This document shows, piece after piece, positions 1-17,248 of a stretch of 64,000 bases of DNA (position 1 is its first letter; each line of letters begins with the position of its first letter). The position numbers and the translations under genes were made by a program. Source of the stretch: a virus; IMG/VR virus record IMGVR_UViG_3300045988_180880, positions 160,001-224,000 of that record; one strand, given 5' to 3'. The notes below the pieces were generated by a model, which saw only the letters and a list, made by a program, of their open reading frames with translations, was not told the origin of the DNA and did not search any database.

Positions 1-17
1 TAGGAGATGGTGTTTAT

Positions 18-725
18 ATGGGGTTTGTAAATAGCGGAGAACATGAAATAACGCTAATGGAAAGTAAGAAAAAGCACTCCAACATATTTGATTTTGGATT
101 AGAGAATGGATATATCGCTATAAATAGAACTACACTCAAAGTAATCGTAAAGAATAAAAAAGGTTATATCGACTGTAGACATCTAACTCTAATCTGTGAT
201 TACCTGAAAAAATCTATCAATTCCAAAGAAAAAGAAATTAAATCTTTGGAAAATAGTATATCAAGAATTGAGTCACATCAAGCAACATTTTCTAGTGAAG
301 AATCTAGGGGAACAGTATTAAAATCTCAGAAAGAGATATTATGTGAGCTCAATGAAAAATTACCCTCACAAAAGAAATTATATGAGGAACTTTCAATGAA
401 GAGAGCCAAATTACTGCAAGAAGTTCAAGAAGAATATGAAAATTGCTTGAAATCTTCTAGTGAAATGGAAAAAGTCATGGAAGAACGGAAAAAATCTTAT
501 GATGCAGAGTTAGTTAAGTGTTATGGAAAAGAACATCCTACATCAGAAGATAAGAAAAATAAACACAAATCAGAAGAACTCGCCCTTCTCGAAAAATTAT
601 TGAAAGAAGGAAGAAAAACGATAGCTCTTATTAATTATAGAATTCCTAACTATGAAGATATGTTAGAAATTCTTAGCGGTAAGTCTATTAAAAGAAAATC
701 AAAAAGAAAGGACGACGATGATTAA
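18..725 (+). CDS. hypothetical coiled-coil protein
   Basis: 235-aa ORF from ATG 18. The sequence is K/E-rich and heptad-like. The 3' end overlaps the next ORF by 8 nt. No family recognised. Confidence 0.6.
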   Translation: MGFVNSGEHEITLMESKKKHSNIFDFGLENGYIAINRTTLKVIVKNKKGYIDCRHLTLICDYLKKSINSKEKEIKSLENSISRIESHQATFSSEESRGTVLKSQKEILCELNEKLPSQKKLYEELSMKRAKLLQEVQEEYENCLKSSSEMEKVMEERKKSYDAELVKCYGKEHPTSEDKKNKHKSEELALLEKLLKEGRKTIALINYRIPNYEDMLEILSGKSIKRKSKRKDDDD

Positions 726-999
726 ACTACTAAGATTACACAAGTTAATTTGGGGAATTCTAGTTATTATAGGAATTCTTCTTGAGATGGTAATTGTAGT
801 ACCAATCGTGTTTTTAGTGTTTATTTATAATTTTAGATTTAATCCAAGAAAAGTATGGGAAGCAATACATAGCGCAGACCTAGATTTTCAGAATAATTGG
901 GGAGGTTATGCCTATCGTGATCATACTCCTTGGGATACGTTCAAAAGAAGATATAAATATACATTTAATCATATAGAGAACGAATCTAAAAGACAATAA
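718..999 (+). CDS. small membrane protein (hypothetical)
   Basis: 93-aa ORF whose start overlaps the upstream stop. It has a hydrophobic span LIWGILVIIGILLEMVIVVPIVFLVFIY. Confidence 0.6.
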   Translation: MIKLLRLHKLIWGILVIIGILLEMVIVVPIVFLVFIYNFRFNPRKVWEAIHSADLDFQNNWGGYAYRDHTPWDTFKRRYKYTFNHIENESKRQ

Positions 1000-1006
1000 A
1001 AAAGAT

Positions 1007-1044
1007 AAAGTAGTAAGACATCAAAGCTTACTACTTTTATTTTC
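1007..1044 (+). terminator. rho-independent terminator candidate
   Basis: Stem AAAGTAGTAAG / CTTACTACTTT with a 9-nt loop and a T-rich tail, a few nt after the stop of 718..999. Confidence 0.6.
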
Positions 1045-1078
1045 TATGTAAAAAAAGGGAATCTCAGAAACCCCGAAA

Positions 1079-1093
1079 TCCTTATTAATGTAT
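1079..1093 (+). promoter_or_regulatory. class II promoter-like motif TCCTTATTAATGTAT
   Basis: One of five similar plus-strand copies (others at 15184, 28054, 30324, 35708). Three sit 20-25 nt upstream of start codons. Function is inferred from position only. Confidence 0.35.
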
Positions 1094-1143
1094 GAAAAAG
1101 AATTTTAAAGAAAAAGATGATTTTATATTTTTAAATAAAGAAC

Positions 1144-1220
1144 GAGTTCGGCTTACAATGTTAGTTACTACTAATTATTATATGGAATGCAAGATTATTA
1201 CTGCATTGATCTCCGAACTT
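1144..1220 (+). ncRNA. candidate structured small RNA, copy A
   Basis: About 75 nt closed by the stem AGTTCGG/CCGAACT. It shares the TTAGTTACTACTAA and TTACTG..GATC blocks with copy B, while the closing stem and inner hairpin differ by compensatory changes. It lies between a promoter-like motif and a terminator. It does not fold as a tRNA. Confidence 0.4.
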
Positions 1221-1231
1221 TAAATTTAAAT

Positions 1232-1312
1232 ACGTGGCGGCTCATGTTATTAGTTACTACTAAATTATAGATTTGTAAACTATGCGATTTACTGTAACGA
1301 TCACCGCCACGT
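1232..1312 (+). ncRNA. candidate structured small RNA, copy B
   Basis: 81 nt closed by the 9-bp stem ACGTGGCGG/CCGCCACGT. It has the same conserved single-stranded blocks as copy A and an inner hairpin GTAAA/TTTAC. Confidence 0.4.
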
Positions 1313-1336
1313 AATTTAAAAAATATAAATAATTCT

Positions 1337-1370
1337 AAACTACAAGAGAAATCCTGTAGTTTTATTTTTT
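1337..1370 (+). terminator. rho-independent terminator candidate
   Basis: Stem AAACTACA / TGTAGTTT followed by TATTTTTT, downstream of the two RNA candidates. Confidence 0.55.
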
Positions 1371-1429
1371 CTTCTCTGATACAAATAAAAAAAAGAACCT
1401 AGATTTTACTCTAAGTTCTTATTATTTTT

Positions 1430-1585
1430 CTATTCATTTACAGGAGGAAAGTCATCATTAATAACTTCTTCATTATCAATTAAACCCGCCTCTTTGTAGC
1501 AATTTCTTTTATTCTCCTTCATCCAGGCTACTAAACATCCTATTAAACCGAGAATAATTGCGATAAATCCTAATATCTTTTTCAT
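1430..1585 (-). CDS. small membrane protein (51 aa), not in the ORF track
   Basis: Hand translation gives MKKILGFIAIILGLIGCLVAWMKENKRNCYKEAGLIDNEEVINDDFPPVNE. It has an N-terminal TM segment. A CTTATATATG-type motif (plus-strand CATATATAAG, 1605-1614) lies about 20 nt upstream. Confidence 0.5.
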   Translation of the reverse strand: MKKILGFIAIILGLIGCLVAWMKENKRNCYKEAGLIDNEEVINDDFPPVNE

Positions 1586-1618
1586 AGTTTTCTTATTTAT
1601 TTTTCATATATAAGATTT

Positions 1619-3106
1619 TTAAGCGGATTCTGTGTTATTTTTATCAATATATCTTTTTATTTCTGTTATTAAGTCTTCTTCGGTTGAAATTATTGGTGCA
1701 AAATAACTATCTAACATTTCTTCAATAGTTGAAAAATGTTTTGTTGAGTCTCTACCTTCTCTTTTTAATATTTTAGGAATTGCAAAATAAATTATATCAA
1801 CTCCATGTTCTTTACACAAATTATACTTTATTAAATCTCGTTGTCTATGATTTTTAAATCCTTTCTCTCCTCCCATATAATTTACAGGAACAAAATGTTG
1901 TACTCCATGACCTTCTATTGCTAAGTTTAATTCTGGAATATAAAAATCTAATTCTAAATTCCTTTTATAAACTAACCAATCTAATGTATGACATCTTGGA
2001 ATAAATTCTATTCCCAAAGATTCTAAAATTTTTCTAATAATAGTTTCTATGGCAGATTCTTTTCGTTCTGGATAAACTAATTTCGTTAAATACCCTTCAT
2101 TACTAGCTTTGTGATACTCCTGTGGAAAATTAATTAAAAATTCAGTAGGACTTTGAATATTGTTATTATCTATAAACTCTTGCATTTCTTCAGAAGTTTT
2201 GTACTTGTCACCCCAATTAGCAACACTTGCTTTATATCTTAATTGCGTTCTAATTCCTAAAGTCTTTGCTCTTCCATAAATTTTTGGATAAGTTCTTTCA
2301 AAAGACTTGGCAGAATATATTTCTGGATGTGTATCAATAAATTCTTGAATATCTTCTACTGTATTAAATTCATCCACCAAACTATAAAGTATTCTATTTG
2401 GATATATTACCTTACTTCTTAATCCTAGTTTAGATAATTTAGCATACCCACTTAAAAATCGATTACTAAAATCTTTTGGATTTTGAATATTATTATCATC
2501 TATAAATTTTTGAGCTGACTCTAAATTATATATAGAATCCCAGTTATCTATATTAGTATGTAATCTATTAGGATATACTACAGACCTAGCAAATTTATTT
2601 TTTAATAATTTTCGATAAATTCCACCAAATCTTTTCTTAAAATCAGTTGGGTTTTGTATTTCATTATCATTAATAAATTTTTGATAGTAATCAACAAATT
2701 CTTCTGGATTTGTTCTTTTTGGAAATATTAATTTAGAAATGATTCTTAAGTTATTTGCTCTATTATATATAATTGGATAGTTAATTTTTAAATCAGAGGA
2801 TGATATAATTTGATTATCTTTAATGAATTTATTAATCTTTTCCAGAGAGTTTATATCTCTGTATAATAAGCTAGTTCTTCTATTCGGATAATTTACTTTA
2901 TCGGCAAAATTCTTTCTAACTAGGCGATTATAAATACTTGGATATCCCTTTTTAAAATCTAATGGCCTAGTAATTTTATTGTTATCTATAAACTGTTGAA
3001 AATCCTCAACAGTATTAAAGTCTTTTAAATCTAAAGAATTACTATTGTTCATTCCCGATTTAGCGACAGACTTTTCTTCGCTTTGAGATTTAGGTAAGTT
3101 ATTCAT
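1619..3106 (-). CDS. free-standing endonuclease candidate: six tandem helical repeats plus a DUF559/Vsr-like PD-(D/E)XK nuclease domain
   Basis: 495 aa. The N-terminus has six repeats of about 50-58 aa (F.DNN.I..P.DF...YP.IY.R......L....YPNR). The C-terminal LELDFYIPELNLAIEGHGVQHF matches the DUF559/Vsr core (D...E.xG..H). It is monocistronic between hairpins. Confidence 0.7.
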   Translation of the reverse strand: MNNLPKSQSEEKSVAKSGMNNSNSLDLKDFNTVEDFQQFIDNNKITRPLDFKKGYPSIYNRLVRKNFADKVNYPNRRTSLLYRDINSLEKINKFIKDNQIISSSDLKINYPIIYNRANNLRIISKLIFPKRTNPEEFVDYYQKFINDNEIQNPTDFKKRFGGIYRKLLKNKFARSVVYPNRLHTNIDNWDSIYNLESAQKFIDDNNIQNPKDFSNRFLSGYAKLSKLGLRSKVIYPNRILYSLVDEFNTVEDIQEFIDTHPEIYSAKSFERTYPKIYGRAKTLGIRTQLRYKASVANWGDKYKTSEEMQEFIDNNNIQSPTEFLINFPQEYHKASNEGYLTKLVYPERKESAIETIIRKILESLGIEFIPRCHTLDWLVYKRNLELDFYIPELNLAIEGHGVQHFVPVNYMGGEKGFKNHRQRDLIKYNLCKEHGVDIIYFAIPKILKREGRDSTKHFSTIEEMLDSYFAPIISTEEDLITEIKRYIDKNNTESA

Positions 3107-3313
3107 TTTTTTATTATATTTTTATTATTCATTTTAGACATCAGAAAGGAATTTCGGAGATAATAAAGTTTCCGGATCTTTATTATTTCCTACTTTTCCC
3201 TAATCTAAAATGAATAACTAACGATAAAAGAACACTAGATCAATCTATTATTTTATAAATTTTTCTAATGTTCTTTCAGTTATAAGGTTTTTGGATTCTC
3301 AGGAAAGTAAAAT

Positions 3314-3345
3314 AAAGACTTAGGATATTTCACCTAAGTCTTATA
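3314..3345 (-). terminator. terminator candidate after the clpC-like gene
   Basis: Stem AGACTTAGG / CCTAAGTCT with A/T-rich flanks on both sides, a few nt after the stop at 3352. Confidence 0.55.
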
Positions 3346-3351
3346 TTATTT

Positions 3352-5058
3352 TTATTTATTTACTTTTTCTTTCTTAATATCTAACTCCATTATTATAGAA
3401 TCAGATACAATTACCTCAGAATTATCACCTAAATCTAAATTAATGATATTCCCAGAAACTTTTCCATTTACCATTGCAAGAGCTAATTTATCTTCTACAT
3501 ACTTTGAAATATTCTTTGATAAATCTCTAGCTCCGTATTTAGTATCTACTTGATCAATTATAAATTCTTTTAATTTTTCAGATATATTGATTTTATATCC
3601 TTTTTTTGATAAACGATCGCTAAGTTTTGCAATTTCAAGATCAAATATCTTTATCATTTCCGGTTTTCCAAGTTCATTAAAGATAACAATATTACTAAGT
3701 CGTCCAATAAATTCTGGTCTAAAGAATTTTTCCATGGCCTTCATTACTATAGACTTATTATCTTTATTTTTCTCATCTTGACTTTGTTTATTAAATCCGA
3801 GTCCATTTCCTTTTTCAGATAGTTGTTTCGAAGCTACGTTACTAGTCATCAAAATTACGCAGTTCTTAAAACTCACTTCGAGACCGTTACTTAGGTTAGC
3901 TTTTCCTGTGTCAAGAATTCCTAGGAGTAAGTCATAAATATCTTTATGAGCTTTTTCAATTTCATCAAATACAATAACCATATTTGGATTAGTTCTTACT
4001 TTTTCAAAAACTGCTGTATCTGAATCAGATCCTAAATATCCTGGAGCGCTTCCAAGTAATCGGGATACAGAATAACTCTCTGTATATTCTCCCATATTAA
4101 TAAGTAATAAGTTTTTCTCAGCGCTTTCAAAGAAAAGTTCAGCTATCTTCTTAGAAATCAGGCTTTTACCTACACCAGTCGGACCTAATAAAAATGCCGT
4201 ACAGATAGGTTTATTGGGATCCTGTATATCAAGAATTGATTTTTGAAGTGCAGTAACTACAGTATCAACTGCATCTTGTTGTCCTATAATTTCTTTTTCC
4301 AAGACTTTCTTCATGTTTCTAATTTTGATTGCTTCACTATCCTTCATCTTGTTTATAGGAACATTAGAAATCTTAGATACTACTGACATAACATCTTCTT
4401 CAGTTACTTCAGGCCAACCAGAAGGATCATTAAGTTCTCCAATTAACTTTAATCTCTCCTCCTCAAGTTCTTTTTTCAAAACCAATTCAGTATCTCTCCT
4501 CTTCTGAGCCTCATCGAAATCTTGTTCCTCTACTAACCTAATTTTTTCCTTAACAATATCATCAATCGCTTTTTCTAGGTTATCTACAGAACTAGTATCA
4601 ATATTTTTTCTAAGTTTTGCTGCACTAGCTGCAATATCAATACAGTCTATGGCTTTATCTGGGAAATGTCTATCATAGATATATCTTCCACTAAGTTCTA
4701 CACAAAGTTTTAAAATATCATCTGTATATCTTACTCTATGATAATCTTCATATCTTTCCCTAAGTGTCTTTAATATTTCCAAGGTTTCTTCTTTGGTTGG
4801 CTCAGACACCATTACCGTTTGAAATCTTCTTTTAAGAGCACTATCTTTTTCTATATATTTTTTAAATTCTGTAGTTGTTGTTGACCCGAGACATCTGAAT
4901 TTCCCTCTAGCTAATGGACCTTTAAGAATATTAGCTCCATCTCCTTTACCATCATTCGAACCATTACCTACTAGATTGTGTATTTCATCTATATAAATAA
5001 TTATTTCAAGATTATTTTCTACTTCTTTGATTATAGCATCTAAACGCTCTTCATATTG
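3352..5058 (-). CDS. clpC: ClpA/ClpC-type AAA+ unfoldase, exon 2 (rest of NBD1, middle region, NBD2)
   Basis: QYEERLDAII..IYIDEIH (NBD1 Walker B), KRRFQ, then NBD2 with GPTGVGKS and VIVFDEIEKAH. A GLGF loop is present. The sequence is collinear with ClpB/ClpC after removal of 5059-5280. Confidence 0.9.
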   Translation of the reverse strand, partial: QYEERLDAIIKEVENNLEIIIYIDEIHNLVGNGSNDGKGDGANILKGPLARGKFRCLGSTTTTEFKKYIEKDSALKRRFQTVMVSEPTKEETLEILKTLRERYEDYHRVRYTDDILKLCVELSGRYIYDRHFPDKAIDCIDIAASAAKLRKNIDTSSVDNLEKAIDDIVKEKIRLVEEQDFDEAQKRRDTELVLKKELEEERLKLIGELNDPSGWPEVTEEDVMSVVSKISNVPINKMKDSEAIKIRNMKKVLEKEIIGQQDAVDTVVTALQKSILDIQDPNKPICTAFLLGPTGVGKSLISKKIAELFFESAEKNLLLINMGEYTESYSVSRLLGSAPGYLGSDSDTAVFEKVRTNPNMVIVFDEIEKAHKDIYDLLLGILDTGKANLSNGLEVSFKNCVILMTSNVASKQLSEKGNGLGFNKQSQDEKNKDNKSIVMKAMEKFFRPEFIGRLSNIVIFNELGKPEMIKIFDLEIAKLSDRLSKKGYKINISEKLKEFIIDQVDTKYGARDLSKNISKYVEDKLALAMVNGKVSGNIINLDLGDNSEVIVSDSIIMELDIKKEKVNK

Positions 5059-5280
5059 CATTACGTTAACTATATGAAAATATTTTCATATAGATCAGTA
5101 TATGATTTCAAGTTTAAATATTTAAACTTGGCCAGTCTTTATACGTTACACTAAAGAATATTATCTTTAGTTCGGCATTAAATTACTTAACTAAAGCGTA
5201 AGATAGTTAAGGTTATTCGCCGAATTTACTAGCTTATAATCTAAAGAATCACTTCTTTAAACGGCCATTTTATAATCACA
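5059..5280 (-). other. putative ORF-less group I intron (222 nt) within the clpC-like gene
   Basis: Removing it restores ..LVAGCQFRG|QYEERL.. in frame. Exon 1 ends in U and the insert ends in G. Helices P1-P9 can be drawn by hand (see finding). Not confirmed by a covariance model. Confidence 0.65.
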
Positions 5281-6276
5281 ACCTCTAAATTGGCAACCAG
5301 CCACTAAAGCGTTTAAATCTAATGAGAAGATCCTTTTATCTATCAATTCTCTAGGAACTTCTTTATTTACTATTTTCTGACACAATCCTTCAATAATTGC
5401 GGTCTTTCCACAACCAGCTTCAGCTAATAAAATTCCATTGTTCTTCTTCCTACATGATAGGATTTCAATAATCTGTGAAATTTCTTTATCTCTACCTACA
5501 ATTGGATCATATTCTCCATTTTTTGCAGCTAAAGTCATATCTGTAGAAAATTTATCAAGGAAAGGGGTTCTAGAATTTGGATCTAGGTTTTCGGGCTCAT
5601 TACTTCCTTGTCCAGCCATTTCAAATTCTCGATCTTCCTCTTCGCGACGTTTTTCTGAGTCTTCGTCGCCTTGGTTATAATCGAGAGTTTTTTCTTTAAG
5701 TTCGCCGCCGTTATTTTCCTCACGGTTATCTTCTTGGTCTTTTATTCCAAGTTTCGTATCGAAGTCATTTATCTTCCAAAATAAACTCGTGAGGTCTCTT
5801 GCATCGGCGCCTAATTCATCTACAAGATACTCTGCAATCTTACTAAATTCTGTTTCTGGAAGTGAACACATAAGAAAAGCTAGTGTATCAATATCATCAG
5901 TCATCTCAGATTTTAAATTTATATCTGTCAGTTTATCCAAGATATAATTAATGGCTGGAGACAAGACAATTGAATCAGCGCCAGTATACAATTCAGAAGG
6001 CGCTGTAAATTTATTGTCTTCTCTAATTTCGGCCACTACATCCATTATAAATTCTCTAAGATCTTCCTCTGTACTAGGTTTTCCGATAAACAGATCTTTT
6101 AGATAATCTCTTAGTTCTGGAATATCACCTTCATTATCTAGATAAGTTATAACTATCTGAGAAACTATATGATCTAATGATATTTCTTTTCCCATAAACG
6201 AGACTACTTCTTCATGAGCTTTCTCGAAAAACTTTTTTAATTCTTGAGATAATTCAAATTTTGATGAATCTTTCAT
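5281..6276 (-). CDS. clpC: ClpA/ClpC-type AAA+ unfoldase, exon 1 (N-domain, acidic linker, NBD1 Walker A)
   Basis: Contains ..GRDKEISQIIEILSCRKKNNGILLAEAGCGKTAIIEGLCQKIVNKEVP..LVAGCQFRG. As printed, the ORF continues for 7 unrelated codons to a TAA at 5257. Confidence 0.9.
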
Positions 6277-6327
6277 TTTTCTATTTGTTTAATTTTTATT
6301 ATGTTTATCATCACATTATTAAGGAAA

Positions 6328-7101
6328 TCATCGGTAAATTTTATATCTATTTTTTGCTTCAGAGATATAATCATTAATATCTTCTTGAGTAATAGTTATA
6401 TCTTTTATGTTTTTAAATTTGTTAGCCCAATTACTACACCAACTCCTCCAACTAGTATCACCTTCAAGTTCTTTTATGTACTCAAGAATTTCTCCTTCTC
6501 CTTTAATATTTCTTTTTGGGACCCACCCCGAACAATTCTCAAAGGATTCATTTCGATCATATATTGATTTTACTTTTATCGAAATTTTCTTTTTCTTTTT
6601 CAACCATTTAAAGAAATCTTTTATAGGATTTGGATACATTAACTTCGGAAACTTATAAATCTCATAATCTTCAGTTACAACTATATAAATCCTTGATTCT
6701 TTTCCTAAGGTCGGTGTCTTAAGAAATGGAAGATCGACTCGTTTGGCATCTATATAAACCTTAGTATTCCACCATCTAAAAGTATCTGGTTTATTTGTAT
6801 CTTTTACTTGATATAACATAAAATCTCCAGAAATATCAATAGCATCTACAGCTAAACCTGTTTTTCCAGTAGAATCATCTATGACTACTTGAGAGTTTCC
6901 TTCTTCAAAGAGATCCATAACTTGAGATGCACCATGTTCTACTATATAAAGTGTTTTCCCTGTTAGATTATCAATAGTTTCTAAGTCTTTTTTATCTCCT
7001 TCTGAAAGTTCTACAAACATATACCCATCTGTACGCGTTACAGATCTAGTTCCAGTAATTCGGTCTAATTTTGTTTTCTTTACTAATTCTTCTGGTTTCA
7101 T
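6328..7101 (-). CDS. hypothetical protein
   Basis: 257-aa ORF, 50 nt upstream of the clpC-like start and 1 nt after the previous ORF. No family recognised. Confidence 0.7.
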   Translation of the reverse strand: MKPEELVKKTKLDRITGTRSVTRTDGYMFVELSEGDKKDLETIDNLTGKTLYIVEHGASQVMDLFEEGNSQVVIDDSTGKTGLAVDAIDISGDFMLYQVKDTNKPDTFRWWNTKVYIDAKRVDLPFLKTPTLGKESRIYIVVTEDYEIYKFPKLMYPNPIKDFFKWLKKKKKISIKVKSIYDRNESFENCSGWVPKRNIKGEGEILEYIKELEGDTSWRSWCSNWANKFKNIKDITITQEDINDYISEAKNRYKIYR

Positions 7102-7102
7102 G

Positions 7103-7642
7103 TTAAATTATTCTCGGTTCATTAATAATTCCTTTATCAATTAGATAGTTTCGATAGAGAAGATTTATAACAAATTCAGGTGATTTACAACAAAATTCTC
7201 TATCTACTACCTTTAGATTTTTCAATAGTTCAAATAAAGAAACTTCAGGTAAATATTCTTTCCTACAACAAATGCTATTATTTCTATTTACAATATCTAA
7301 TCTTGAATCTGTATAGATTAATTTTTTCTCTCGATTTAGTATATTTATTATTTTTCTATTAGAAAGTTTTTTACAGATATACCCTTCTGTAACAAAATAT
7401 AAAAATACCTCAGATAAAGAAGCTAGACGTACATCCTTTTCTAATTGAATTCCTTCAAAAAATTTTAACACATAAGTTTTATCAAAAAGATTTTTATAAT
7501 TATTCCTAGATAAAATATATCTTGAGTGTAAAAATGGAAAAGTATATAATAAATCTTCTTTATTTGAAGAAGAAATTTCTAAGTAAGTGTATTTTGCTCC
7601 TTTAAAATTTATATAACTTAATAACATACTTACTTTCCCCAT
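7103..7642 (-). CDS. hypothetical protein, tandem paralog of 7630..8196
   Basis: 179 aa. The C-terminus LYRNYLIDKGIINEPRII resembles IFRNYLIDTGKITGEPKI of the upstream neighbour. Confidence 0.7.
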   Translation of the reverse strand: MGKVSMLLSYINFKGAKYTYLEISSSNKEDLLYTFPFLHSRYILSRNNYKNLFDKTYVLKFFEGIQLEKDVRLASLSEVFLYFVTEGYICKKLSNRKIINILNREKKLIYTDSRLDIVNRNNSICCRKEYLPEVSLFELLKNLKVVDREFCCKSPEFVINLLYRNYLIDKGIINEPRII

Positions 7643-8196
7643 TTTAAATTTATTTTTGGTTCTCCAGTAATTTTTCCAGTATCTATAAGATAATTTCGAA
7701 AGATTATAGTTTTTAGAAATCCTGTTACAGTTTTAAATTTCTTTTCAGGGATAGGAACCACAGAAGTCAGAATATCCTTTCTAGTAAATGAGTTTAATTC
7801 GTACTCCCTGATTAATCGGGTTCCTGGTTGTTTATTCAACGATTCTACTTCCATTATAAATGAAAGTTGTATCATTGGATCTTTATAAAGTCTTTTTGAC
7901 ATAGAATTAAGATTTGAAATTTTTGGACGGTCAATTGAGGATGCTAAAACTAATCCTACTTTAGAGAAATCCATTAATTGTATTGGTCTTTCTTTTTCGA
8001 ATTTTTCTAAGTATGGTTTTAATTTTACTTCGTCCTGTACAATTTCAAAACTAAATCCAGGTTCTGCAAACACTTCGAATCTACCATAATCTACATAAGG
8101 TATTGTAATTTTTTCTGTAGAATTTGATTCTGTAAGTACTGTATAATATACTGTGAATACATTTTGTATAACACATTGATAAACTTTTACATCCAT
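7630..8196 (-). CDS. hypothetical protein, tandem paralog of 7103..7642
   Basis: 188 aa with a shared C-terminal motif. It overlaps both neighbours by about 10 nt. Confidence 0.7.
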   Translation of the reverse strand: MDVKVYQCVIQNVFTVYYTVLTESNSTEKITIPYVDYGRFEVFAEPGFSFEIVQDEVKLKPYLEKFEKERPIQLMDFSKVGLVLASSIDRPKISNLNSMSKRLYKDPMIQLSFIMEVESLNKQPGTRLIREYELNSFTRKDILTSVVPIPEKKFKTVTGFLKTIIFRNYLIDTGKITGEPKINLKWGK

Positions 8197-9974
8197 TCTT
8201 CTATAGTATTATCGTTCCACTTCACCCTAGCATATACATCTGGGGCATTATCTAATCTCAATTCTAAGTTTTTAAAATCTTCTCTGAATTCTTGAGGTAG
8301 TTCGAATACTTTATTTATTACCTCCTTCATAATTTCTCGAGCCTTTAATTGTCTGGCTTTCTTTCTCCATACTCTGGGACAAAATACGGCCGGAACATAT
8401 ATAAAGTGATCAGAAGCGGCGGATATATCTGTTATAACTACCTCAGAAGGATCTATCTCAAGTTTTTCATACTCTGGGGTGTTCCAGTATCCATATTCAT
8501 TTTTCTTTGGTTCCTTAGAAAAACATAAATACTTATCTCCTTCTTTAACAAACCATAAACTTCCGCCGCTAAACTCCTCTTTATATTTTTCTAATAAATC
8601 AGCCGGTGTTGATAGTCCCGGATCTTCATCGAAATAATCTTGAAGAATTTGTTTTATCTCTCCAACTATTTTTCCAGGAGCTAATCTAAATTCTGTCATT
8701 ATACACTCTCCTGTAACTGGAACTGTGAAATTTGCAGTAGGTTGAAGATTTTTTATTCTTTCAACTTCGGAGAGAAATGATTCAGTTTGACCTGGCATAT
8801 TCCAACAAGGTTTATGGTTCATATTATCAGCTTCAATTAACTTCATTTCATCCGTCAAGTTATCTCCAAGAAGTCTGATAAGTTGACGAGTTTTCTTTGG
8901 TTTTCCTGTATATAATCCCCGAGAATAGTCATATAGCTGTTTAATACACATATGATTTTCAACTAAGAAAACGACTTTATCAATTACTTCCCCCGGATAT
9001 TTAAGATTAGTTAGGATTTTTCTTGTTTCTTTTGCTGACTCTTTATCATGTTCATGAAATGAAAATGATCCATCTTCTTTTACTTGATAACATATTGGTT
9101 TAGAAACATCATGAAAGAGGGCTGCTAACCTAAGTTCAAGATTTGCTCCGCCTTGAATTACATGACCCAATACAGCAAGAGAATGTTCACCCCAAGTCTT
9201 ATCATGATATTTATTATTCTGTACGAAACCAATATTTAATTGAAAAATCTTAGAAATTCTCCACATAAGACATCTTCCAATTAGTTCTCGAATTCCCCAT
9301 ACTGCATTTTTTGACATTAAAATCTTAGTAAACTCATCTCTAATCCTTTCCATACTAAGAGATGAATATTCTGGAATATTATCAATCTTAGAGTATGTTT
9401 CCTCAGAAATAGTAAACATTTTAGTACAGGCAAATCTGATTGCTCTTAACATTCTAAGAGGATCATCTTTAAAAGTCTGTTCAGGATCAAGAGGCGTTCT
9501 TAAGATTCTATTCTTACAATCATCTAAACCTTTCCCCGTTGGATCTAATACCTCTCCAGTTAATAGGTTTTTATATAATGCATTACAACAAAAATCACGT
9601 CTAAAAGCATCCTCTGTGATATTAGTTTGTTGTACTGTATCTGGTTTTCTCGGTCCTTGATTATAAGTTTCAACTCTAGGTACAACACACTCTATATCTA
9701 TCTTTTCATTGGCTCCTATGTCTAATGAAAATTTCCCAGTTTTAAATCTATTATAAGTAACGAAACCAGAACATTCAGGCTTTGTTTTTAGGAAATCTAT
9801 AAAGAGATCTGTTCCTTCTGGATAATCAATACAAAGATCTATATCTTTTGGAGTTTTTCCTAAAACTAAATCCCTAACACATCCACCAACTAGATAGATT
9901 TTTTCTTTGAATTTACAATCTTGAACTACTTCTTTTAATAATTCGACTGCTTTTTCGTAATCAATTTTCTTCAT
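8187..9974 (-). CDS. cca: CCA-adding tRNA nucleotidyltransferase / poly(A) polymerase family with HD domain
   Basis: Motifs GGCVRDLVLGKTPKDIDL, RRDFCCNA, DPLRMLRAIRF and the HD motif LAALFHDVSKP. A C-terminal extension of about 170 aa has no recognised family. Confidence 0.9.
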   Translation of the reverse strand: MKKIDYEKAVELLKEVVQDCKFKEKIYLVGGCVRDLVLGKTPKDIDLCIDYPEGTDLFIDFLKTKPECSGFVTYNRFKTGKFSLDIGANEKIDIECVVPRVETYNQGPRKPDTVQQTNITEDAFRRDFCCNALYKNLLTGEVLDPTGKGLDDCKNRILRTPLDPEQTFKDDPLRMLRAIRFACTKMFTISEETYSKIDNIPEYSSLSMERIRDEFTKILMSKNAVWGIRELIGRCLMWRISKIFQLNIGFVQNNKYHDKTWGEHSLAVLGHVIQGGANLELRLAALFHDVSKPICYQVKEDGSFSFHEHDKESAKETRKILTNLKYPGEVIDKVVFLVENHMCIKQLYDYSRGLYTGKPKKTRQLIRLLGDNLTDEMKLIEADNMNHKPCWNMPGQTESFLSEVERIKNLQPTANFTVPVTGECIMTEFRLAPGKIVGEIKQILQDYFDEDPGLSTPADLLEKYKEEFSGGSLWFVKEGDKYLCFSKEPKKNEYGYWNTPEYEKLEIDPSEVVITDISAASDHFIYVPAVFCPRVWRKKARQLKAREIMKEVINKVFELPQEFREDFKNLELRLDNAPDVYARVKWNDNTIEEWM

Positions 9975-9993
9975 AATTGTTTATTGTTTTTAT

Positions 9994-10004
9994 CACATAT
10001 AAGG
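9994..10004 (-). promoter_or_regulatory. promoter-like motif CCTTATATGTG (minus sense)
   Basis: A variant of the CCTTATATATG motif, 20 nt upstream of the cca start. A similar copy lies at 30270-30280 upstream of 29999..30244. Confidence 0.3.
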
Positions 10005-10051
10005 AAAATAAACTACCCTGGAAGATTTATTTTCTCCAAGGTAGTAATATT

Positions 10052-11137
10052 TTATTGTTGTTCAGCTTTTTTATATACTTTTATAATAGTTGCTAGATTA
10101 AGAATTACTATAAATCCAGATATAATTATAGTAATTAAATTTATAAAAGGTATTTGAATGAAATTATAAGAATCCAATTCAATATGATTCCAATAATTTT
10201 TTTGATATCCACTAAGTAAACAATCTGAATAATTTTCTATGTTTAACTTTGTTCCAGGCTTAAGAGATTTTTCCAAAATATATTTTTCAAACTTTTTATC
10301 TCTATCCCAACTAAAAGATCCAGACCAAGTTATAGTATCATTTTCATCAATACCTATACAAAATATTGCTTCATTTTCTTTTCCTCCAGACCAGAATGAT
10401 CTTTGAAGTTCTGTTTTATTCTTATAGCTATTTTGCCAAACTAAAAGAATAGGTCTGAACATAGGATCAAGGGAACATATATAACCAATTTTTCTTTCTA
10501 GAGAATCAGGAATATTGATACCATATACGAAATTTTGTCTAGGTTCTAAAATATTATCTGAATTTACAACTCTACCAATACTATATCTCACAAATAATCT
10601 TTTCTTCAAAGCTTCTGATATATCTACATCATATAACTTATAGATCGGTAAGATATTATTCATGTAGTTATAGTAATTAACTGGTTTTGAGAATATTAAT
10701 GCAGTTTCAGGATTACTATTCCACTTAGATCTACACATATGCCAACTCTTATTCTGTGGATGTATGATATCTTCCTTGTTTTTCCATAATCCTTGAAAAT
10801 ACATAAAAGTATTTTTCGAAATTTCAATCTCTACTTCTTCACCAGTATCAAAATCATCATAAACTAGGTAATAAACATCTTCATGAGTAACATCTTTTCC
10901 ATCTACTTTTTCTATCCAATTACTGTAATGTTTTATATACCTAGCTGAGTATTCAACTAGTTTTGTATCTACTGGCTTATTTAAAGTAAATGTAAAAAAT
11001 ACAATAAATATAGCCATAATCGAAGGTAAGACGAAAAATATATTCGGCTTATCTTTTTTCAATCGTCTTTTAACTTTAATAAATATAAATACTGATATTA
11101 ATAACAGTATTACAACAGTCATAAATAAATATTCCAT
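10052..11137 (-). CDS. membrane protein (hypothetical)
   Basis: 361 aa with hydrophobic segments near both termini (VVILLLISVFIFI, IFIVFFTF, LITIIISGFIVILNLATII). Confidence 0.75.
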   Translation of the reverse strand: MEYLFMTVVILLLISVFIFIKVKRRLKKDKPNIFFVLPSIMAIFIVFFTFTLNKPVDTKLVEYSARYIKHYSNWIEKVDGKDVTHEDVYYLVYDDFDTGEEVEIEISKNTFMYFQGLWKNKEDIIHPQNKSWHMCRSKWNSNPETALIFSKPVNYYNYMNNILPIYKLYDVDISEALKKRLFVRYSIGRVVNSDNILEPRQNFVYGINIPDSLERKIGYICSLDPMFRPILLVWQNSYKNKTELQRSFWSGGKENEAIFCIGIDENDTITWSGSFSWDRDKKFEKYILEKSLKPGTKLNIENYSDCLLSGYQKNYWNHIELDSYNFIQIPFINLITIIISGFIVILNLATIIKVYKKAEQQ

Positions 11138-11144
11138 AGGCTTT

Positions 11145-11888
11145 TTAAAAACTTATTAATTTTCTTTTTCTAAGCAAATCTCCAACTACTGAGTTCCATT
11201 CTATCGCATCTTTAATAGTTTTCTCTGGATAAGTATAAGTGATAAAATTATTTTCTGCAAAAATGGTTTCTGTAATAATTATTTTTCCATAATCACCCAT
11301 ATCAGATTCATAAAATATATTTAAAGAGTTTCTGAATATTCCATCATCTCCTGGGGTTAAATAAAGATTATCAGTATCTTTTTCAATAGATCCTAAGAAA
11401 ATAAGATCTTCCCGAGGTTTCTTAACTCCCATTAAGGAATAATCTGCGTACCAAAGATAATGTTCATACTTCCATGAATGAACACTATATTCTCTAAGAT
11501 CTCTTGGAAAACCACTTAACTCTGGGGTCCCTTCACTTCCATAAATTACACAAGGTTTCCACCCTCCATTAATATATTGAAGTTCAAAAAGACATTTTGG
11601 ATAATCTTCATGGATTAAAATATCACCTTCATAAATTCCGTTAGTTATAAATTCTCCAACAGATTTATGTGAAACCCTACTCCAAGTAAAAGATCTCTTT
11701 TCTTCATCGACTCGACTATCACTAGTTATAATTAAACAAGAACTGTCATAAGTAGATATTCTAAGGGATCCATACACGAAATTCAATGAATCATATAGAC
11801 TCATTCCAATAGGTATTCCTCTAAAACTCTTGTCAATACTACTTCCATGTTTTTCTGCAAAGTATTTTTCAAGTAATCTACAACTCAT
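11145..11888 (-). CDS. hypothetical protein
   Basis: 247-aa ORF in a coupled array. No family recognised. Confidence 0.7.
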   Translation of the reverse strand: MSCRLLEKYFAEKHGSSIDKSFRGIPIGMSLYDSLNFVYGSLRISTYDSSCLIITSDSRVDEEKRSFTWSRVSHKSVGEFITNGIYEGDILIHEDYPKCLFELQYINGGWKPCVIYGSEGTPELSGFPRDLREYSVHSWKYEHYLWYADYSLMGVKKPREDLIFLGSIEKDTDNLYLTPGDDGIFRNSLNIFYESDMGDYGKIIITETIFAENNFITYTYPEKTIKDAIEWNSVVGDLLRKRKLISF

Positions 11889-13317
11889 TTTTTCTCTTTT
11901 CTTGTTTTAATCTTAATAACTCTTTTGACAAAGTAGGATCATTATGAGAGATGCCATCCAAGATATCATAATAAATACCCCAAATGGATCTTACAAATGC
12001 TAATCGTTTCGACACAAGCATATAAGTTCCATTCATTAAGGGCAGTTTAGATTCTTTCATAGAACTGTAAAGAGCACTAAGACGTAAGTATCTCTTATGC
12101 CACTTCAAAAGTTCTGGCATAGCTGTCTTTTCAGATAAACCCATTTCTCCAAGAACTTCTTTAACATCCTCTGGAAGTTCATCAAAAAACATATTATAAC
12201 TTTTCTGCAAAGATTCTTTATCTTCACTTAATTTCTCTACTACTTGATCCCATGTTAAATCACAAAGATCATCTATCCAGGAATCAATATAATATAATTT
12301 ATCCGAATCTTTAATAACACCAAATAGAATTGGATCCTTTTTAATTCTCTCCTCTTCAGCTTTTTCATATTCTGTTAAACTGAATGATTTTCCGGTAGGA
12401 TCATAGTACAGAATTACGTAGTTATCAAATACTTGTAAATTATCTGCCAGTACTTTCTTTTCAGCAACTGAATCTGGAATTACTCTTGTGAAATTCTTAA
12501 TATAATCAATATCAAGTTGTTTTTCACATTTTTTCTGAAGAGTTACTAGATCCGACATTGTAATATAATGATTAATTCCAGAAACTGCTAGAACTGATTC
12601 ATAAATATGTATAACTAATTCTGAAATTAATTTTTCGAGTTGAGCTTGTTGATTTAATACAGTAGCTTTATGAATTAAGCTCATATAAGCTTCAGTACGT
12701 TCTTTAAACTCTTTTTCTTTTCCAGCTAATATCTTAACTTGATCAAACAATTCTATTACATTTATTTCATACAGCTTTTTCGGTTCCTCTATCTTATCCT
12801 CAGTAATTGTCTTTTTTCTCTTTCCAAATAATTTTTCTAAGAAACCTTTCTTCTCTTTCTTATTCCCCGAAGAATTCATATTAGTATTAACATATTTAAC
12901 AGAATCATCATTATTATTTACGAAAATTTGATTCCGAATTCTACCTGAGATTAAAGAATTATTTTCCTTCAGAATTTTTAATAGCTTTTCTGAAATTGAT
13001 ATATTAAATTTCCTAGCATTTGAGTCTCCAAGAAATTCCTTAACTCTAGATAAACCTTTTAGAATTTTATCTGTAGCTTCTATTTCTTTCTCACCTTCTA
13101 AGAAAAGAAATTGTCCTGGAGTTATTGAATCAGGATCTGTATTTACTATTCTATTAAAATTTATATTTACTTCAGATTCCTTAAGGTCTTCCTTTGAACT
13201 TAAAGTTACTTTTTCGGTTGTATCTTTTACTAGATTTTTATATTTTAATAAATTTTCATCTACTACAATACCACCTTCAAACAATGTAATTCTGTTTCCT
13301 TTTTCTAATAATTTCAT
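11878..13317 (-). CDS. hypothetical protein
   Basis: 479-aa ORF that overlaps both neighbours. No family recognised. Confidence 0.75.
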   Translation of the reverse strand: MKLLEKGNRITLFEGGIVVDENLLKYKNLVKDTTEKVTLSSKEDLKESEVNINFNRIVNTDPDSITPGQFLFLEGEKEIEATDKILKGLSRVKEFLGDSNARKFNISISEKLLKILKENNSLISGRIRNQIFVNNNDDSVKYVNTNMNSSGNKKEKKGFLEKLFGKRKKTITEDKIEEPKKLYEINVIELFDQVKILAGKEKEFKERTEAYMSLIHKATVLNQQAQLEKLISELVIHIYESVLAVSGINHYITMSDLVTLQKKCEKQLDIDYIKNFTRVIPDSVAEKKVLADNLQVFDNYVILYYDPTGKSFSLTEYEKAEEERIKKDPILFGVIKDSDKLYYIDSWIDDLCDLTWDQVVEKLSEDKESLQKSYNMFFDELPEDVKEVLGEMGLSEKTAMPELLKWHKRYLRLSALYSSMKESKLPLMNGTYMLVSKRLAFVRSIWGIYYDILDGISHNDPTLSKELLRLKQEKRKNEL

Positions 13318-16668: not shown

Positions 16669-17248
16669 TTCTTATATAATTTTTAATATATTTATAAACA
16701 TCTGTAATTAACCCTGTAGTCTCTTTATCTTGAAATAATTCATCAGATATTAAATTATCATCTACTAAATCTTTCAAAAGCTTTGTTATATCATCACTGT
16801 TACTAAATGAAACTATATTTGTTATATGATAATATTGAGACTTATCTCCGATATATGTAAAAGTTAATTTGACATATGGAAGTCTTACTAAATCATATGA
16901 ACCATCCTGATTTTGAGACTCTGAAATCAAACATTCTCCTGAAATATTAGTATAACTGTAAAGATCAAGAATTGTTTTTCCTGGAATACATTTAAGATAA
17001 TTAAAATTCTTTACTATTTCGGTGTCCGAACTTCCTCCAGTAACCACTACATTATTATGCATCTTAGAATGTGTTTCTGTTTTCTTAAAGAATCCAAAAA
17101 CTTTTTTCTCTGTTGTGTACTTTTCTTCATAAACAAAGTAGAACTTATGATCTTCAAGTTTTAATGATTCTGGATTTATTTCTATCTTTGTAACTCTATA
17201 ATCTTTAATTGAGGGTAAGTCGTTAAATAATCTTCCTATTTTCATCAT
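16658..17248 (-). CDS. hypothetical protein, tandem paralog of 17245..17742
   Basis: 196 aa. It shares DGSYDLVRLPYVKLTF versus DGSYKVYRLPYIIIYY, and also the C-terminal L..L.....L..D.LF.D motifs. Confidence 0.7.
   Translation of the reverse strand: MMKIGRLFNDLPSIKDYRVTKIEINPESLKLEDHKFYFVYEEKYTTEKKVFGFFKKTETHSKMHNNVVVTGGSSDTEIVKNFNYLKCIPGKTILDLYSYTNISGECLISESQNQDGSYDLVRLPYVKLTFTYIGDKSQYYHITNIVSFSNSDDITKLLKDLVDDNLISDELFQDKETTGLITDVYKYIKNYIRNGK

What the first reader, a model, noticed from the sequence alone, without database searches (positions are those of the whole stretch)
5059..5280. A 222-nt ORF-less group I-like intron splits a phage ClpA/ClpC-type unfoldase gene inside NBD1
Minus-strand ORFs 5257..6276 and 3352..5061 are the two halves of one Hsp100. 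The first reads ...GCGKTAIIEGL...LDLNALVAGCQFRG, followed by 7 unrelated codons and TAA. The second reads (M)QYEERLDAIIKEV..IYIDEIH. Bacterial ClpB/ClpC read ..VAGxKYRGEFEERL.. continuously, so deleting exactly 5059-5280 restores FRG|QYEERL in frame, between Walker A and Walker B. The last exon-1 base is U and the last inserted base is G, as group I introns require. Numbering the insert 1-222 from 5280 downward, I can draw a full core. P1 pairs the exon UUUAGAGGU end with 16-22 GCC(G)UUU, including the U-G pair. P2 is 21-40, closed by a GUGA (GNRA) loop. P3 is 48-53 GCUAGU with 145-150 ACUGGC. J3/4 is AAA at 54-56. P4 is 57-62 UUCGGC with 105-110 GCCGAA. P5 is 70-76 with 89-95. P6 is 111-117 with 124-130. 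P7 is 137-141 GUAUA with 179-183 UAUAC. P8 is 151-172, J8/7 is 173-178 and P9 is 188-211. The terminal G is at 222. The insertion sits in one of the most conserved motifs of the protein, which is typical of self-splicing introns. I am not aware of group I introns reported in Clp unfoldase genes. An alternative is a genuinely split gene, because an in-frame ATG (5059-5061) sits exactly at the junction.
Basis: partly seen in the sequence, partly recalled or inferred. Interest (0 to 1): 0.8.

Follow-up and report, generated by a model that had tools for sequence, protein, structure and literature searches.

The report
Self-splicing intron in phage ClpC gene
A 222-base group I intron with no gene of its own interrupts the ClpC-like unfoldase gene of a human-gut jumbo phage; it is a real but fairly ordinary example of the small introns already known to be common in such phages.

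Summary
Minus-strand ORFs 5257-6276 and 3352-5061 are two halves of one ClpC-like Hsp100. Removing exactly 5059-5280 gives a 900-aa protein that aligns without a break to B. subtilis ClpC. Related phages carry uninterrupted alleles reading ...FRG|QYEERL at the same nucleotide.

The insert belongs to a family of about ten distinct paralogues in related gut huge phages. These also split GyrB-like, amidase-like and RpoB-like genes, always after GGU and inside conserved motifs. Covariation across the family supports P1-P9, including the P3/P7 pseudoknot: 96-98% of cells pair, against 35-45% in slid controls.

Rfam Intron_gpI misses the whole family, although it finds the phage Twort introns. A model built from the family does hit those proven self-splicing Twort introns, at their annotated 5' ends.

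Small ORF-less group I introns are already documented in gut jumbo (Jug) phages, so this is a new member of a known kind.

One addition: a free-standing homing-endonuclease-like gene (1619-3106) sits just downstream of clpC. It occurs in 4 of 4 intron-bearing loci and 0 of 14 intron-less ones, which suggests collaborative homing.

The parts
5281..6276 (-). clpC-like gene, exon 1 (332 codons). It encodes the N-terminal domain and the NBD1 Walker A motif (GCGKT), and ends ...VAGCQFRG with U at the splice site (5281).
5059..5280 (-). ORF-less group I intron, 222 nt. Intron position i corresponds to window coordinate 5281 - i.
5263..5283 (-). P1. Exon GGU (5283-5281) plus intron UGU (5280-5278) pair with the internal guide AUGGCC (5268-5263). 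The U-1/G16 wobble lies at the 5' splice site.
   Evidence: helix 1: GC 12/12, GC 10/12, UG 10/12; 3 pairs covary
5239..5262 (-). P2 hairpin (19-28/33-42) closed by a GNRA loop. The loop is GUGA here, and GUAA or GAAA in paralogues.
   Evidence: 6 of 10 pairs compensatory
5228..5233 (-). P3 5' strand (48-53, GCUAGU). It is followed by J3/4 AAA (5227-5225).
5151..5224 (-). P4-P5-P6 domain: P4 57-62/105-110, P5 70-77/88-95, P6 111-117/124-130.
5140..5144 (-). P7 5' strand (137-141, GUAUA). G137 pairs with the invariant C183 and is the candidate guanosine-binding pair.
5131..5136 (-). P3 3' strand (145-150, ACUGGC). It closes the pseudoknot with P7.
5109..5130 (-). P8 hairpin (151-159/164-172). 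It follows P3' directly, with no P7.1/P7.2.
   Evidence: 6-7 compensatory pairs
5098..5102 (-). P7 3' strand (179-183, UAUAC), preceded by J8/7 AAAUCA (5108-5103).
5070..5093 (-). P9 hairpin (188-197/202-211).
5059..5069 (-). 3' tail UUAACGUAAUG, ending in the terminal (omega) G at 5059. The AUG at 5061-5059 is part of this tail.
3352..5058 (-). clpC-like gene, exon 2 (568 codons plus stop). It starts QYEERL and encodes NBD1 Walker B, the middle region, NBD2 and the D2-small domain.
3315..3342 (-). Terminator-like hairpin just after the clpC stop codon. No such site lies inside the intron.
1619..3106 (-). Free-standing homing-endonuclease-like gene (495 aa) with repeated N-terminal modules and a C-terminal nuclease-like region. 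Among the loci examined it is found only next to intron-containing clpC alleles.

Best explanation
Window 5059-5280 (minus strand) is a compact, ORF-less group I intron inside the NBD1 ATPase core of a ClpC-like unfoldase gene of a human-gut huge phage.

**Inferred mechanism (standard group I chemistry; not shown here)**
1. The gene is transcribed as one pre-mRNA.
2. The intron folds into P1-P9 with the P3/P7 pseudoknot.
3. An external guanosine docks at the invariant G137-C183 pair of P7. It attacks the phosphate after U-1, which is held in the U-G wobble of P1 by the guide sequence GGCC.
4. The terminal G222 then takes the guanosine site, and the freed 5' exon attacks the 3' splice site.
5. 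This joins ...CAA UUU AGA GGU to CAA UAU GAA... and yields a 900-aa ClpC-like protein reading FRG-QYEERL.

**Inferred spread**
- The intron carries no endonuclease, so it probably moves together with the free-standing homing-endonuclease-like gene just downstream of clpC (1619-3106). This would be collaborative homing, or simple co-conversion.
- The paralogous introns in other genes all sit after GGU. They may have arisen by retargeting through the short P1 pairing (reverse splicing) or through relaxed endonuclease specificity.
For: **Shown**
- The 222-nt insertion is exact relative to intron-less alleles, and the ORF is restored.
- U-1 and the terminal G are present.
- The fold has z = -4.83.
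- Related gut huge phages hold about ten distinct paralogues.
- On the model-fitted alignment, 96.4% of cells pair and 33 of 67 pairs show compensatory change in all nine helices. Slid controls give 35-45% paired and 3-10 such pairs.
- An independent MAFFT/RNAalifold run recovers P2-P6, P8 and P9 de novo.
- With P7 added to that independent alignment, 97.6% of cells pair and 25 of 53 pairs are compensatory.
- P7 covaries perfectly: GUAUA/UAUAC against GAAUA/UAUUC.
- Invariant G-U pairs (for example G19-U42, 12/12) are strand-specific. This points to selection on the sense RNA.
- Paralogues interrupt RRRPG|MYIGG and ARSG|QNGIG (GyrB-like), ILDNG|HGNNTPGK (amidase-like) and RISMG|TSMLKQ (RpoB-like). 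All follow GGU.
- The family model R2 hits the Twort orf142 introns at 23.5 and 14.8 bits, with 5' ends within 1 nt of the Rfam RF00028 hits. The best unrelated score in the 64-kb window is 11.3 bits.
- Both exons show substitutions biased to third codon positions.
- The endonuclease-like gene is present in 4 of 4 intron-bearing loci and 0 of 14 intron-less loci. Paralogous endonuclease genes lie about 250 nt from paralogous introns.

**Context**
- Gut Jug jumbo phages carry 2513 small group I introns, and metatranscriptome reads support splicing for 37 of 76 tested (PMC12880540).
Against: - Rfam RF00028 gives no hit at its gathering score, nor at E <= 10, for this intron or for five paralogue loci. 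The same model finds the Twort introns at 64-101 bits.
- No spliced product was seen. No full-length protein above 85% identity is in the 5.8-billion-protein database, and the spliced-junction 28-mer is absent from JGI metagenome contigs. Both are weak negatives.
- P10 is only 2 bp.
- P3 carries a U-U mismatch in the L009/L014 variants.
- P7 is all A-U apart from the G-C pair.
- An in-frame AUG at the junction is conserved in all four clpC intron variants.
Confidence: 0.88

Rival explanations
1. The clpC gene is genuinely split. The 339-aa N-terminal fragment and a 569-aa fragment started at the AUG at 5061-5059 are made separately and assemble non-covalently. The structured spacer RNA would then have another role, or would be an inactive intron relic.
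For: - An in-frame ATG sits exactly at the junction and is kept in all four clpC variants.
- Both ORFs are intact in hundreds of metagenomic contigs.
- Both ORFs evolve under purifying selection.
- Split clpC genes exist in some plastids (PMC4603697).
Against: - The break lies between Walker A and Walker B, inside the NBD1 core fold. Plastid splits lie at domain borders: clpN | clpC1 | clpC2 (PMC4603697).
- The terminal AUG is only one variant of the family's 3' tail; CUG and AAG also occur.
- The amidase paralogue has no start codon at its junction, so that family member at least must splice.
- Covariation shows that all group I helices, including the catalytic P7, have been maintained. This would be unexplained for a mere spacer.
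Confidence: 0.05
2. The insert is a decayed group I intron that no longer splices, so this clpC allele is a pseudogene or only partly functional.
For: - There is no Rfam match.
- P7 is weak and A-U rich.
- P10 is minimal.
- The U-U mismatch in P3 of some variants.
Against: - Both exon ORFs stay intact, with third-position-biased substitutions, across alleles that differ by up to 16% in nucleotide sequence and in several hundred database members.
- The intron is 93% conserved between these alleles, whereas 31% of third codon positions in exon 2 differ.
- Compensatory changes occurred within the clpC lineage itself: two fully compensated pairs in P2.
Confidence: 0.04
3. The element acts at the DNA or translation level rather than as a spliced RNA. 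Candidates are a miniature mobile DNA insertion, or a translational bypass of the kind seen in T4 gene 60.
For: - The insertion is precise.
- In the window the insert length happens to be a multiple of three (222 nt).
Against: - The L014/L016 variants are 226 nt, which is not a multiple of three.
- The take-off and landing codons do not match: GGU before the gap, and AUG before the landing site.
- The gap is over four times the 50 nt of T4 gene 60 (figure from my own knowledge).
- The frame contains TAA, TAG and TGA stops.
- Conserved G-U pairs and sense-strand orientation in every host gene point to selection on the RNA.
Confidence: 0.01

Closest known systems
Small ORF-less group I introns of gut 'Jug' jumbo phages (PMC12880540; preprint PMC12363816)
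   Same: - The habitat is the same (human gut). The best-matching IMG/VR contig is of similar size (377,817 bp) and GC (about 30%).
- The introns are of similar size: about 206 nt on average there, 193-230 nt here.
- They also lack ORFs and interrupt essential genes, with many free-standing endonuclease genes nearby.
- Splicing of such introns has been confirmed by metatranscriptome reads (37 of 76).
   Different: - The window's nearest IMG/VR contig (huge_phage_1602) is listed in that study's collection but carries no large-cluster label. Membership of the Jug clade is therefore unverified.
- The paper names terL, nrdD and DNA polymerase as split genes, not a Clp unfoldase.
- Its intron tables were not readable here.
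Staphylococcus phage Twort orf142 group I introns (self-splicing shown experimentally; crystal structure cited in PMC3984707)
   Same: - The family model R2 aligns to them with matching 5' ends.
- Shared features are a P2 hairpin with a GUAA loop, J3/4-P4 AAUUC, and J6/7-P7 (U/C)AACGA.UA.AGA.
- They are small, AT-rich and ORF-less, and several occur in one phage gene.
   Different: - The Twort introns score 64-101 bits with Rfam RF00028; this family scores nothing.
- In this family P3' runs straight into P8. The R2 alignment places extra Twort sequence there, presumably the P7.1/P7.2 elements of subgroup IA2 (my reading, not tested).
- P7 here is GAAUA or GUAUA rather than GACUA.
Cyanophage S-PM2 psbA intron with the free-standing endonuclease F-CphI: collaborative (trans) homing (Zeng, Bonocora & Shub 2009, as described in PMC3984707 and PMC6083498)
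   Same: - An ORF-less intron of about 200 nt sits in a conserved gene, with a free-standing homing-endonuclease gene immediately downstream of that gene.
- Here the intron and the endonuclease-like gene co-occur perfectly: 4 of 4 against 0 of 14.
   Different: - The nuclease family is different and unassigned: PHROG 559/9084 hits, no Pfam hit.
- Cleavage at the intron insertion site is untested.
- The distance from the insertion site to the endonuclease gene is about 1.95 kb.
Genuinely split clpC genes of eustigmatophyte and chrysophyte plastids (PMC4603697)
   Same: One ClpC is encoded as separate ORFs.
   Different: - Plastid splits fall at domain borders (N-domain | AAA1 | AAA2), and no intron-like RNA lies between the pieces.
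- Here the break lies inside AAA1, between Walker A and Walker B, and is filled by a structured RNA shaped like a ribozyme.

Membership tests
Group I intron | Precise interruption of a gene; removing it restores an uninterrupted conserved coding sequence, and intron-less alleles exist. | tested here: met
   - Removing 5059-5280 restores FRG|QYEERL.
- L001/L002 are uninterrupted at the same nucleotide.
Group I intron | 5' splice site after a U that forms a U-G wobble in P1 with an internal guide sequence. | tested here: met
   - U-1 (5281) pairs with G16, flanked by G-C pairs to C17 and C18.
- The pair is conserved across paralogues (UG 10/12; the other two rows are misaligned).
- The intron-proximal P1 pairs covary.
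Group I intron | Terminal (omega) G as the last intron nucleotide. | tested here: met
   - G at 5059.
- For every paralogue, a G at the 3' end gives an in-frame junction that continues the conserved motif.
Group I intron | Core order P3-[P4-P5-P6]-P7-P3'-P8-P7'-P9 with the P3/P7 pseudoknot, supported by covariation. | tested here: met
   - 96.4% of cells paired and 33 of 67 pairs compensatory, against 35-45% paired in slid controls.
- repeat this on an alignment not fitted to the structure.
- P7 has one perfectly covarying pair; P3 has two.
Group I intron | Guanosine-binding G-C pair in P7. | tested here: inconclusive
   The G137-C183 pair is invariant in 12 of 12 family members. Whether it binds guanosine cannot be tested in silico.
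Group I intron | Match to the curated covariance model Rfam RF00028 (Intron_gpI). | tested here: not met
   - No hit at the gathering score, or at E <= 10, for the window or five paralogue loci.
- Positive control: three Twort introns score 64-101 bits.
- The subtype models used in the Jug phage study could not be run here.
Group I intron | Detectable homology to experimentally proven group I introns. | tested here: met
   - Family model R2 hits Twort orf142 introns at 23.5 bits (E = 0.0017 in 114 kb) and 14.8 bits. The 5' ends fall within 1 nt of the Rfam hits.
- Two further hits flank the gene the Twort record annotates as 'intron encoded nuclease'.
- The background maximum is 11.3 bits.
Group I intron | Guanosine-dependent self-splicing, or spliced mRNA in vivo. 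| not testable with these tools
   Indirect searches for a spliced product were negative: no full-length protein above 85% identity; junction 28-mer absent from JGI contigs.
Group I intron, subgroup IA2 (typical of phages) | P7.1/P7.2 helices between P3' and P8. | tested here: not met
   P3' (145-150) abuts P8 (151-172) with no intervening nucleotides, in all family members. The subgroup is left unassigned.
Collaborative homing pair (ORF-less intron plus free-standing homing endonuclease) | A free-standing endonuclease gene lies next to the intron-bearing gene and is inherited with the intron. | tested here: met
   - ORF 1619-3106 hits PHROG 559 (5e-23) and PHROG 9084 (7e-18).
- It is present in 4 of 4 intron-bearing clpC loci and absent from 14 of 14 intron-less loci.
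- Paralogous endonuclease genes lie about 250 nt from the GyrB-like gene's first intron (after RRRPG) in L157, L161 and L166.
Collaborative homing pair (ORF-less intron plus free-standing homing endonuclease) | The endonuclease cleaves intron-less alleles at or near the intron insertion site. | not testable with these tools
   This needs a cleavage assay on the L001-type sequence TTTAGAGGTCAGTATGAAGAG.
Jug phage clade | Genome-wide similarity to the curated Jug genomes. | tested here: inconclusive
   - The window is 98.1% identical over 12.2 kb to IMGVR_UViG_3300045988_180488.
- That contig is in the study's collection (human gut, 377,817 bp, GC 0.297) but has no large-cluster label. The Jug genome table was truncated in the held copy.
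Genuinely split Hsp100 gene | Split at a domain boundary, with independent translation signals for each part. | tested here: not met
   - The split lies inside NBD1 between Walker A and Walker B.
- Promoter-like sites occur at chance frequency, and no terminator-like site lies in the spacer.
- The junction AUG is not conserved across the family.

The most novel reading that the evidence does not exclude
The clpC intron and the free-standing endonuclease-like gene downstream form one mobile cassette (window 1645-5593).
- This cassette has been exchanged between gut huge phages that are otherwise 95-99.8% identical, carrying a divergent clpC ATPase core with it.
- In this reading the intron protects its carrier from the endonuclease, which cuts intron-less rivals during co-infection. 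That would be collaborative homing used for competition between phages.
- The same Rfam-invisible intron lineage would have colonised GyrB-like, amidase-like and RpoB-like genes by retargeting a minimal GGU/GCC P1 pairing.
Probability: 0.35. Interest if true: 0.5.

Novelty: new member of a known kind. Interest (0 to 1): 0.35.

Why it matters
- **Annotation.** The two ORFs should be joined into one 900-aa ClpC-like unfoldase. In public databases they are called separately as 339-aa and 569-aa proteins, in clusters totalling several hundred members.
- **Detection gap.** A whole lineage of compact group I introns in abundant human-gut phages is invisible to the standard Rfam model. Intron counts from Rfam-based pipelines will therefore be too low, and the family alignment and model built here could fill that gap.
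- **Mobility model.** The strict pairing of the intron with a free-standing endonuclease gene, and the mosaic clpC cassette, give a tractable natural case for studying collaborative homing and gene exchange in uncultured jumbo phages.
- **What it is not.** It does not reveal a new kind of element.

Tried and rejected
- **Rfam.** Searches at the gathering score on the whole window and at E <= 10 on 4900-5450 found no Intron_gpI hit. Five paralogue loci also gave nothing.
- **Phage GenBank searches.** Megablast of the locus gave no match. Sensitive blastn with the intron gave only short chance hits.
- **14-mer scan.** AACGTATAAAGACT against viral contigs returned over 113 mostly chance hits, but one real paralogue (L109) was rescued from them.
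- **20-base gapped pattern.** It still returned coding-sequence chance matches, identified by eye and by their failure against model R1.
- **Other family members in the window.** Scans with R1 and R2, the latter also with filters off, found none.
- **Spliced or precisely intron-less version of this allele.** None was found in the protein database or in JGI metagenome contigs.
- **Endonuclease ORF.** Pfam gave nothing, even at E <= 10 on its C-terminal part.
- **Promoter and terminator scan.** It gave no evidence for a separate transcription unit for exon 2.
- **Alternatives rejected.**
  - An intein or in-frame insertion is excluded by stop codons of all three kinds and by the 226-nt variants.
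  - A group II intron is excluded by size and structure.
  - Translational bypass is excluded by mismatched codons and by length.
- **Jug clade membership.** It could not be settled because the supplementary tables are truncated.

Full report
**1. The observation**

On the minus strand, ORF 5257-6276 (339 aa) ends ...GCGKTAIIEGL...LDLNALVAGCQFRG, followed by CDYKMAV and TAA. ORF 3352-5061 (569 aa) begins MQYEERLDAIIKEV...IYIDEIH.
- Pfam finds AAA_lid_9, AAA_2 and ClpB_D2-small in the second ORF. The first ORF gives only a weak P-loop hit.
- Deleting 5059-5280 (222 nt, 26.6% GC against 32% for the exons) joins 996 and 1707 nt in frame into a 900-aa protein.
- That protein matches B. subtilis ClpC (3j3t) at E = 1.3e-167 in a single stretch. 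The stretch crosses the junction without a gap: VAGCQFRGQYEERL against VAGTKYRGEFEDRL.
- The insert has TAA, TAG and TGA stops in the exon-1 frame, so no recoding could make it readable.

**2. Intron-less and intron-bearing alleles**

A scan of IMG/VR viral contigs with the joined protein returned 19 loci from gut huge phages.
- L001 and L002 (82% amino-acid identity) are uninterrupted. They read VAGCQFRGQYEERL, with DNA ...TTTAGAGGT|CAGTATGAAGAG.
- L001 aligns to window 5643-5281 and 5058-3258 contiguously (6993|6994). This fixes the insertion at exactly 5059-5280.
- Three other alleles carry the insert: L009 (225 nt) and L014/L016 (226 nt). The 226-nt length is not a multiple of three.
- The window is 98.1% identical over 12.2 kb to L003, from contig IMGVR_UViG_3300045988_180488 (377,817 bp). 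A published collection lists that contig as a human-gut huge phage with GC 0.297.

**3. Structure**
- The insert plus flanks folds at -60.1 kcal/mol (z = -4.83; 0 of 200 shuffles as good).
- Written out, the helices are P1 (exon GGU + UGU with AUGGCC), P2 19-28/33-42 (loop GUGA), P3 48-53/145-150, J3/4 AAA, P4 57-62/105-110, P5 70-77/88-95, P6 111-117/124-130, P7 137-141/179-183, P8 151-159/164-172 and P9 188-197/202-211, ending at G222.
- This is the canonical group I order, with P3 and P7 crossing.

**4. A family of paralogues**

The clpC variants are too alike for statistics, although P2 already shows two fully compensated pairs. Pattern scans of viral contigs were therefore combined with a covariance model built from the clpC introns (R1). 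Together they found related elements in other genes of related gut huge phages.

Joining the flanking ORFs places the paralogues as follows:
- after RRRPG | MYIGG in a GyrB-like gene;
- after ARSG | QNGIG in the same GyrB-like gene;
- after ILDNG | HGNNTPGK in an amidase-like gene;
- after RISMG | TSMLKQSIPL in an RpoB-like gene;
- in a gene of unknown function, where the intron splits a codon.

Common features of the family:
- Every 5' exon ends GGU, and every guide sequence contains GCC.
- All copies are in the sense orientation.
- All L2 loops are GNRA (GUGA, GUAA or GAAA).
- The 3' tails vary: ...UAAUG, ...ACAUG, ...AACUG, ...AAAAG, ...UAAAG.

The junction AUG is therefore not a family feature. 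The amidase paralogue has no start codon at its junction.

**5. Covariation**
- On the model-fitted alignment (13 distinct rows), with P7 added as a pseudoknot, 96.4% of cells form standard pairs. 33 of 67 pairs show changes on both sides, spread over all nine helices. Sliding the 3' partners by 1-3 columns gives 35-45% pairing and 3-10 such pairs.
- An independent MAFFT alignment folded by RNAalifold recovers P2, P3, P4, the base of P5, P6, P8 and P9 de novo. 24 of 48 pairs are compensatory.
- With P7 added to that alignment, 97.6% of cells pair and 25 of 53 pairs are compensatory.
- P7 reads GUAUA/UAUAC in four sequences and GAAUA/UAUUC in eight, with no exceptions. G137-C183 is invariant.
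- Invariant G-U pairs show that selection acts on the sense RNA.

**6. Link to known group I introns**
- Rfam RF00028 does not detect the window intron or any paralogue, even at E <= 10.
- The same model finds the three Twort orf142 introns at 64-101 bits. The miss therefore reflects real divergence of this family.
- A model built from the family (R2) hits Twort at 17247-17442 (23.5 bits; E = 0.0017 in 114 kb) and 16972-17207 (14.8 bits). Their 5' ends lie within 1 nt of the Rfam hits.
- The next two hits flank the gene the Twort record annotates as 'intron encoded nuclease'.
- With filters off, nothing unrelated in the 64-kb window exceeds 11.3 bits.
- The alignment shares the P2 GUAA hairpin, AAUUC at J3/4-P4 and AACGA.UA.AGA at J6/7-P7.
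- Unlike Twort, P3' here abuts P8. I therefore do not assign the family to subgroup IA2.

**7. Rivals**
- **Genuinely split gene.** An in-frame AUG at the junction and two intact, selected ORFs allow this reading. However, the break lies inside the NBD1 core, whereas plastid clpC splits lie at domain borders (PMC4603697). This reading also leaves the maintained catalytic-core covariation unexplained.
- **Dead intron.** This is disfavoured because both exons stay intact across alleles that differ by up to 16% and in several hundred database members. The intron is also 93% conserved, against 31% divergence at third codon positions in exon 2.
- **Translational bypass or a DNA-level element.** These are excluded by the 226-nt variants, mismatched codons, stop codons and strand-specific G-U pairs.

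**8. Spliced product**
- The protein database holds no full-length relative above 85% identity. It does hold large clusters of the separate 569-aa and 339-aa ORFs; one 569-aa member occurs on 143 contigs of up to 403 kb.
- The spliced-junction 28-mer is absent from JGI metagenome contigs.
- So the interrupted allele is widespread, and splicing remains inferred.

**9. Endonuclease gene and mosaic structure**
- ORF 1619-3106, about 250 nt downstream of the clpC stop codon, matches phage homing-endonuclease families: PHROG 559 at 5e-23 and PHROG 9084 at 7e-18. It has no Pfam hit.
- It is present in all four intron-bearing clpC loci and in none of 14 intron-less loci.
- Paralogues of it (about 30% identity) lie about 250 nt from the GyrB-like gene's first intron (after RRRPG) in three loci.
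- Phages L004, L008 and L018 are 99.7-99.8% identical to window 1-1644 and 95-97% identical to 5594-12226. They are only about 70% identical across the clpC core, and they lack both the intron and the endonuclease gene.
- This fits co-inheritance of intron and endonuclease as a cassette, as in collaborative homing (PMC3984707, PMC6083498). Cleavage specificity is untested.

**10. Comparison and verdict**

Small ORF-less group I introns are already documented at scale in gut Jug jumbo phages: 2513 introns averaging about 206 nt, with 37 of 76 supported by RNA reads (PMC12880540). They are also reported in crAss-like phages. Literature searches found no report of a group I intron in a Clp unfoldase gene. 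That absence is limited to the papers held in the library, and the Jug intron tables were not readable.

It is a new member of a known kind, with two modest extras: invisibility to Rfam and the pairing with an endonuclease gene.

Noticed in passing
window 1619-3106 (-): A 495-aa free-standing homing-endonuclease-like gene lies just downstream of clpC. It has several repeated N-terminal modules of about 55 aa and a C-terminal nuclease-like region (PHROG 559, 9084 and 3339; no Pfam hit). It occurs only next to intron-bearing clpC alleles: 4 of 4 against 0 of 14.
   Followed up: partly
window 1645-5593, compared with L004/L008/L018: Phages that are 95-99.8% identical to the window on both flanks are only about 70% identical across the clpC ATPase core. 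They lack both the intron and the endonuclease gene. This mosaic cassette suggests recombinational exchange. In L004 a 90-aa ORF occupies the place of the endonuclease gene.
   Followed up: partly
L109:1053-1300 and L109:1550-1761 (contig IMGVR_UViG_3300045988_180413); the first-site (RRRPG) intron also at L166:99-349 on contig 3300045988_180488: In L109, two paralogous introns of the same family sit about 250 nt apart in one GyrB/topoisomerase-like gene, at RRRPG|MYIGG and ARSG|QNGIG. The IMG/VR contig nearest to the window (L166) carries the first-site intron.
   Followed up: yes
L159:7868-8090 and L159:8133-8219: Two family members lie in tandem, separated by only about 40 nt of apparent exon. 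The host gene was not identified, and the second hit matches only part of the model.
   Followed up: no
window 30546-30623 (+): The Rfam tRNA model scores 39.8 bits (gathering score 29), but ARAGORN finds no tRNA in the window. The sequence has a good T-arm, a 9-bp anticodon-type stem with a 4-nt loop, and no clear acceptor stem. It may be a degenerate or unusual tRNA-like element.
   Followed up: partly
window 8187-9974 (-): A 595-aa protein has PolyA_pol head, RNA-binding and HD domains, like a CCA-adding enzyme or poly(A) polymerase. It lies three genes upstream of clpC, and the arrangement is conserved in the intron-less relative L170.
   Followed up: no
window 49953-58604 (+): A single very large ORF of 2883 aa. 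It was not examined.
   Followed up: no
L169 (phage Twort) 17504-17655 and 18926-19047: The family model R2 gives weak hits on both sides of Twort ORF018, annotated 'intron encoded nuclease'. Rfam reports no hit there at its gathering score. The two hits are probably the halves of an ORF-containing intron.
   Followed up: no
window 1-12226 compared with L003: The window is not identical to its best IMG/VR match (98.1% over 12.2 kb), although the intron and clpC exon 2 are identical in sequence. The window therefore comes from a close relative of that contig.
   Followed up: yes
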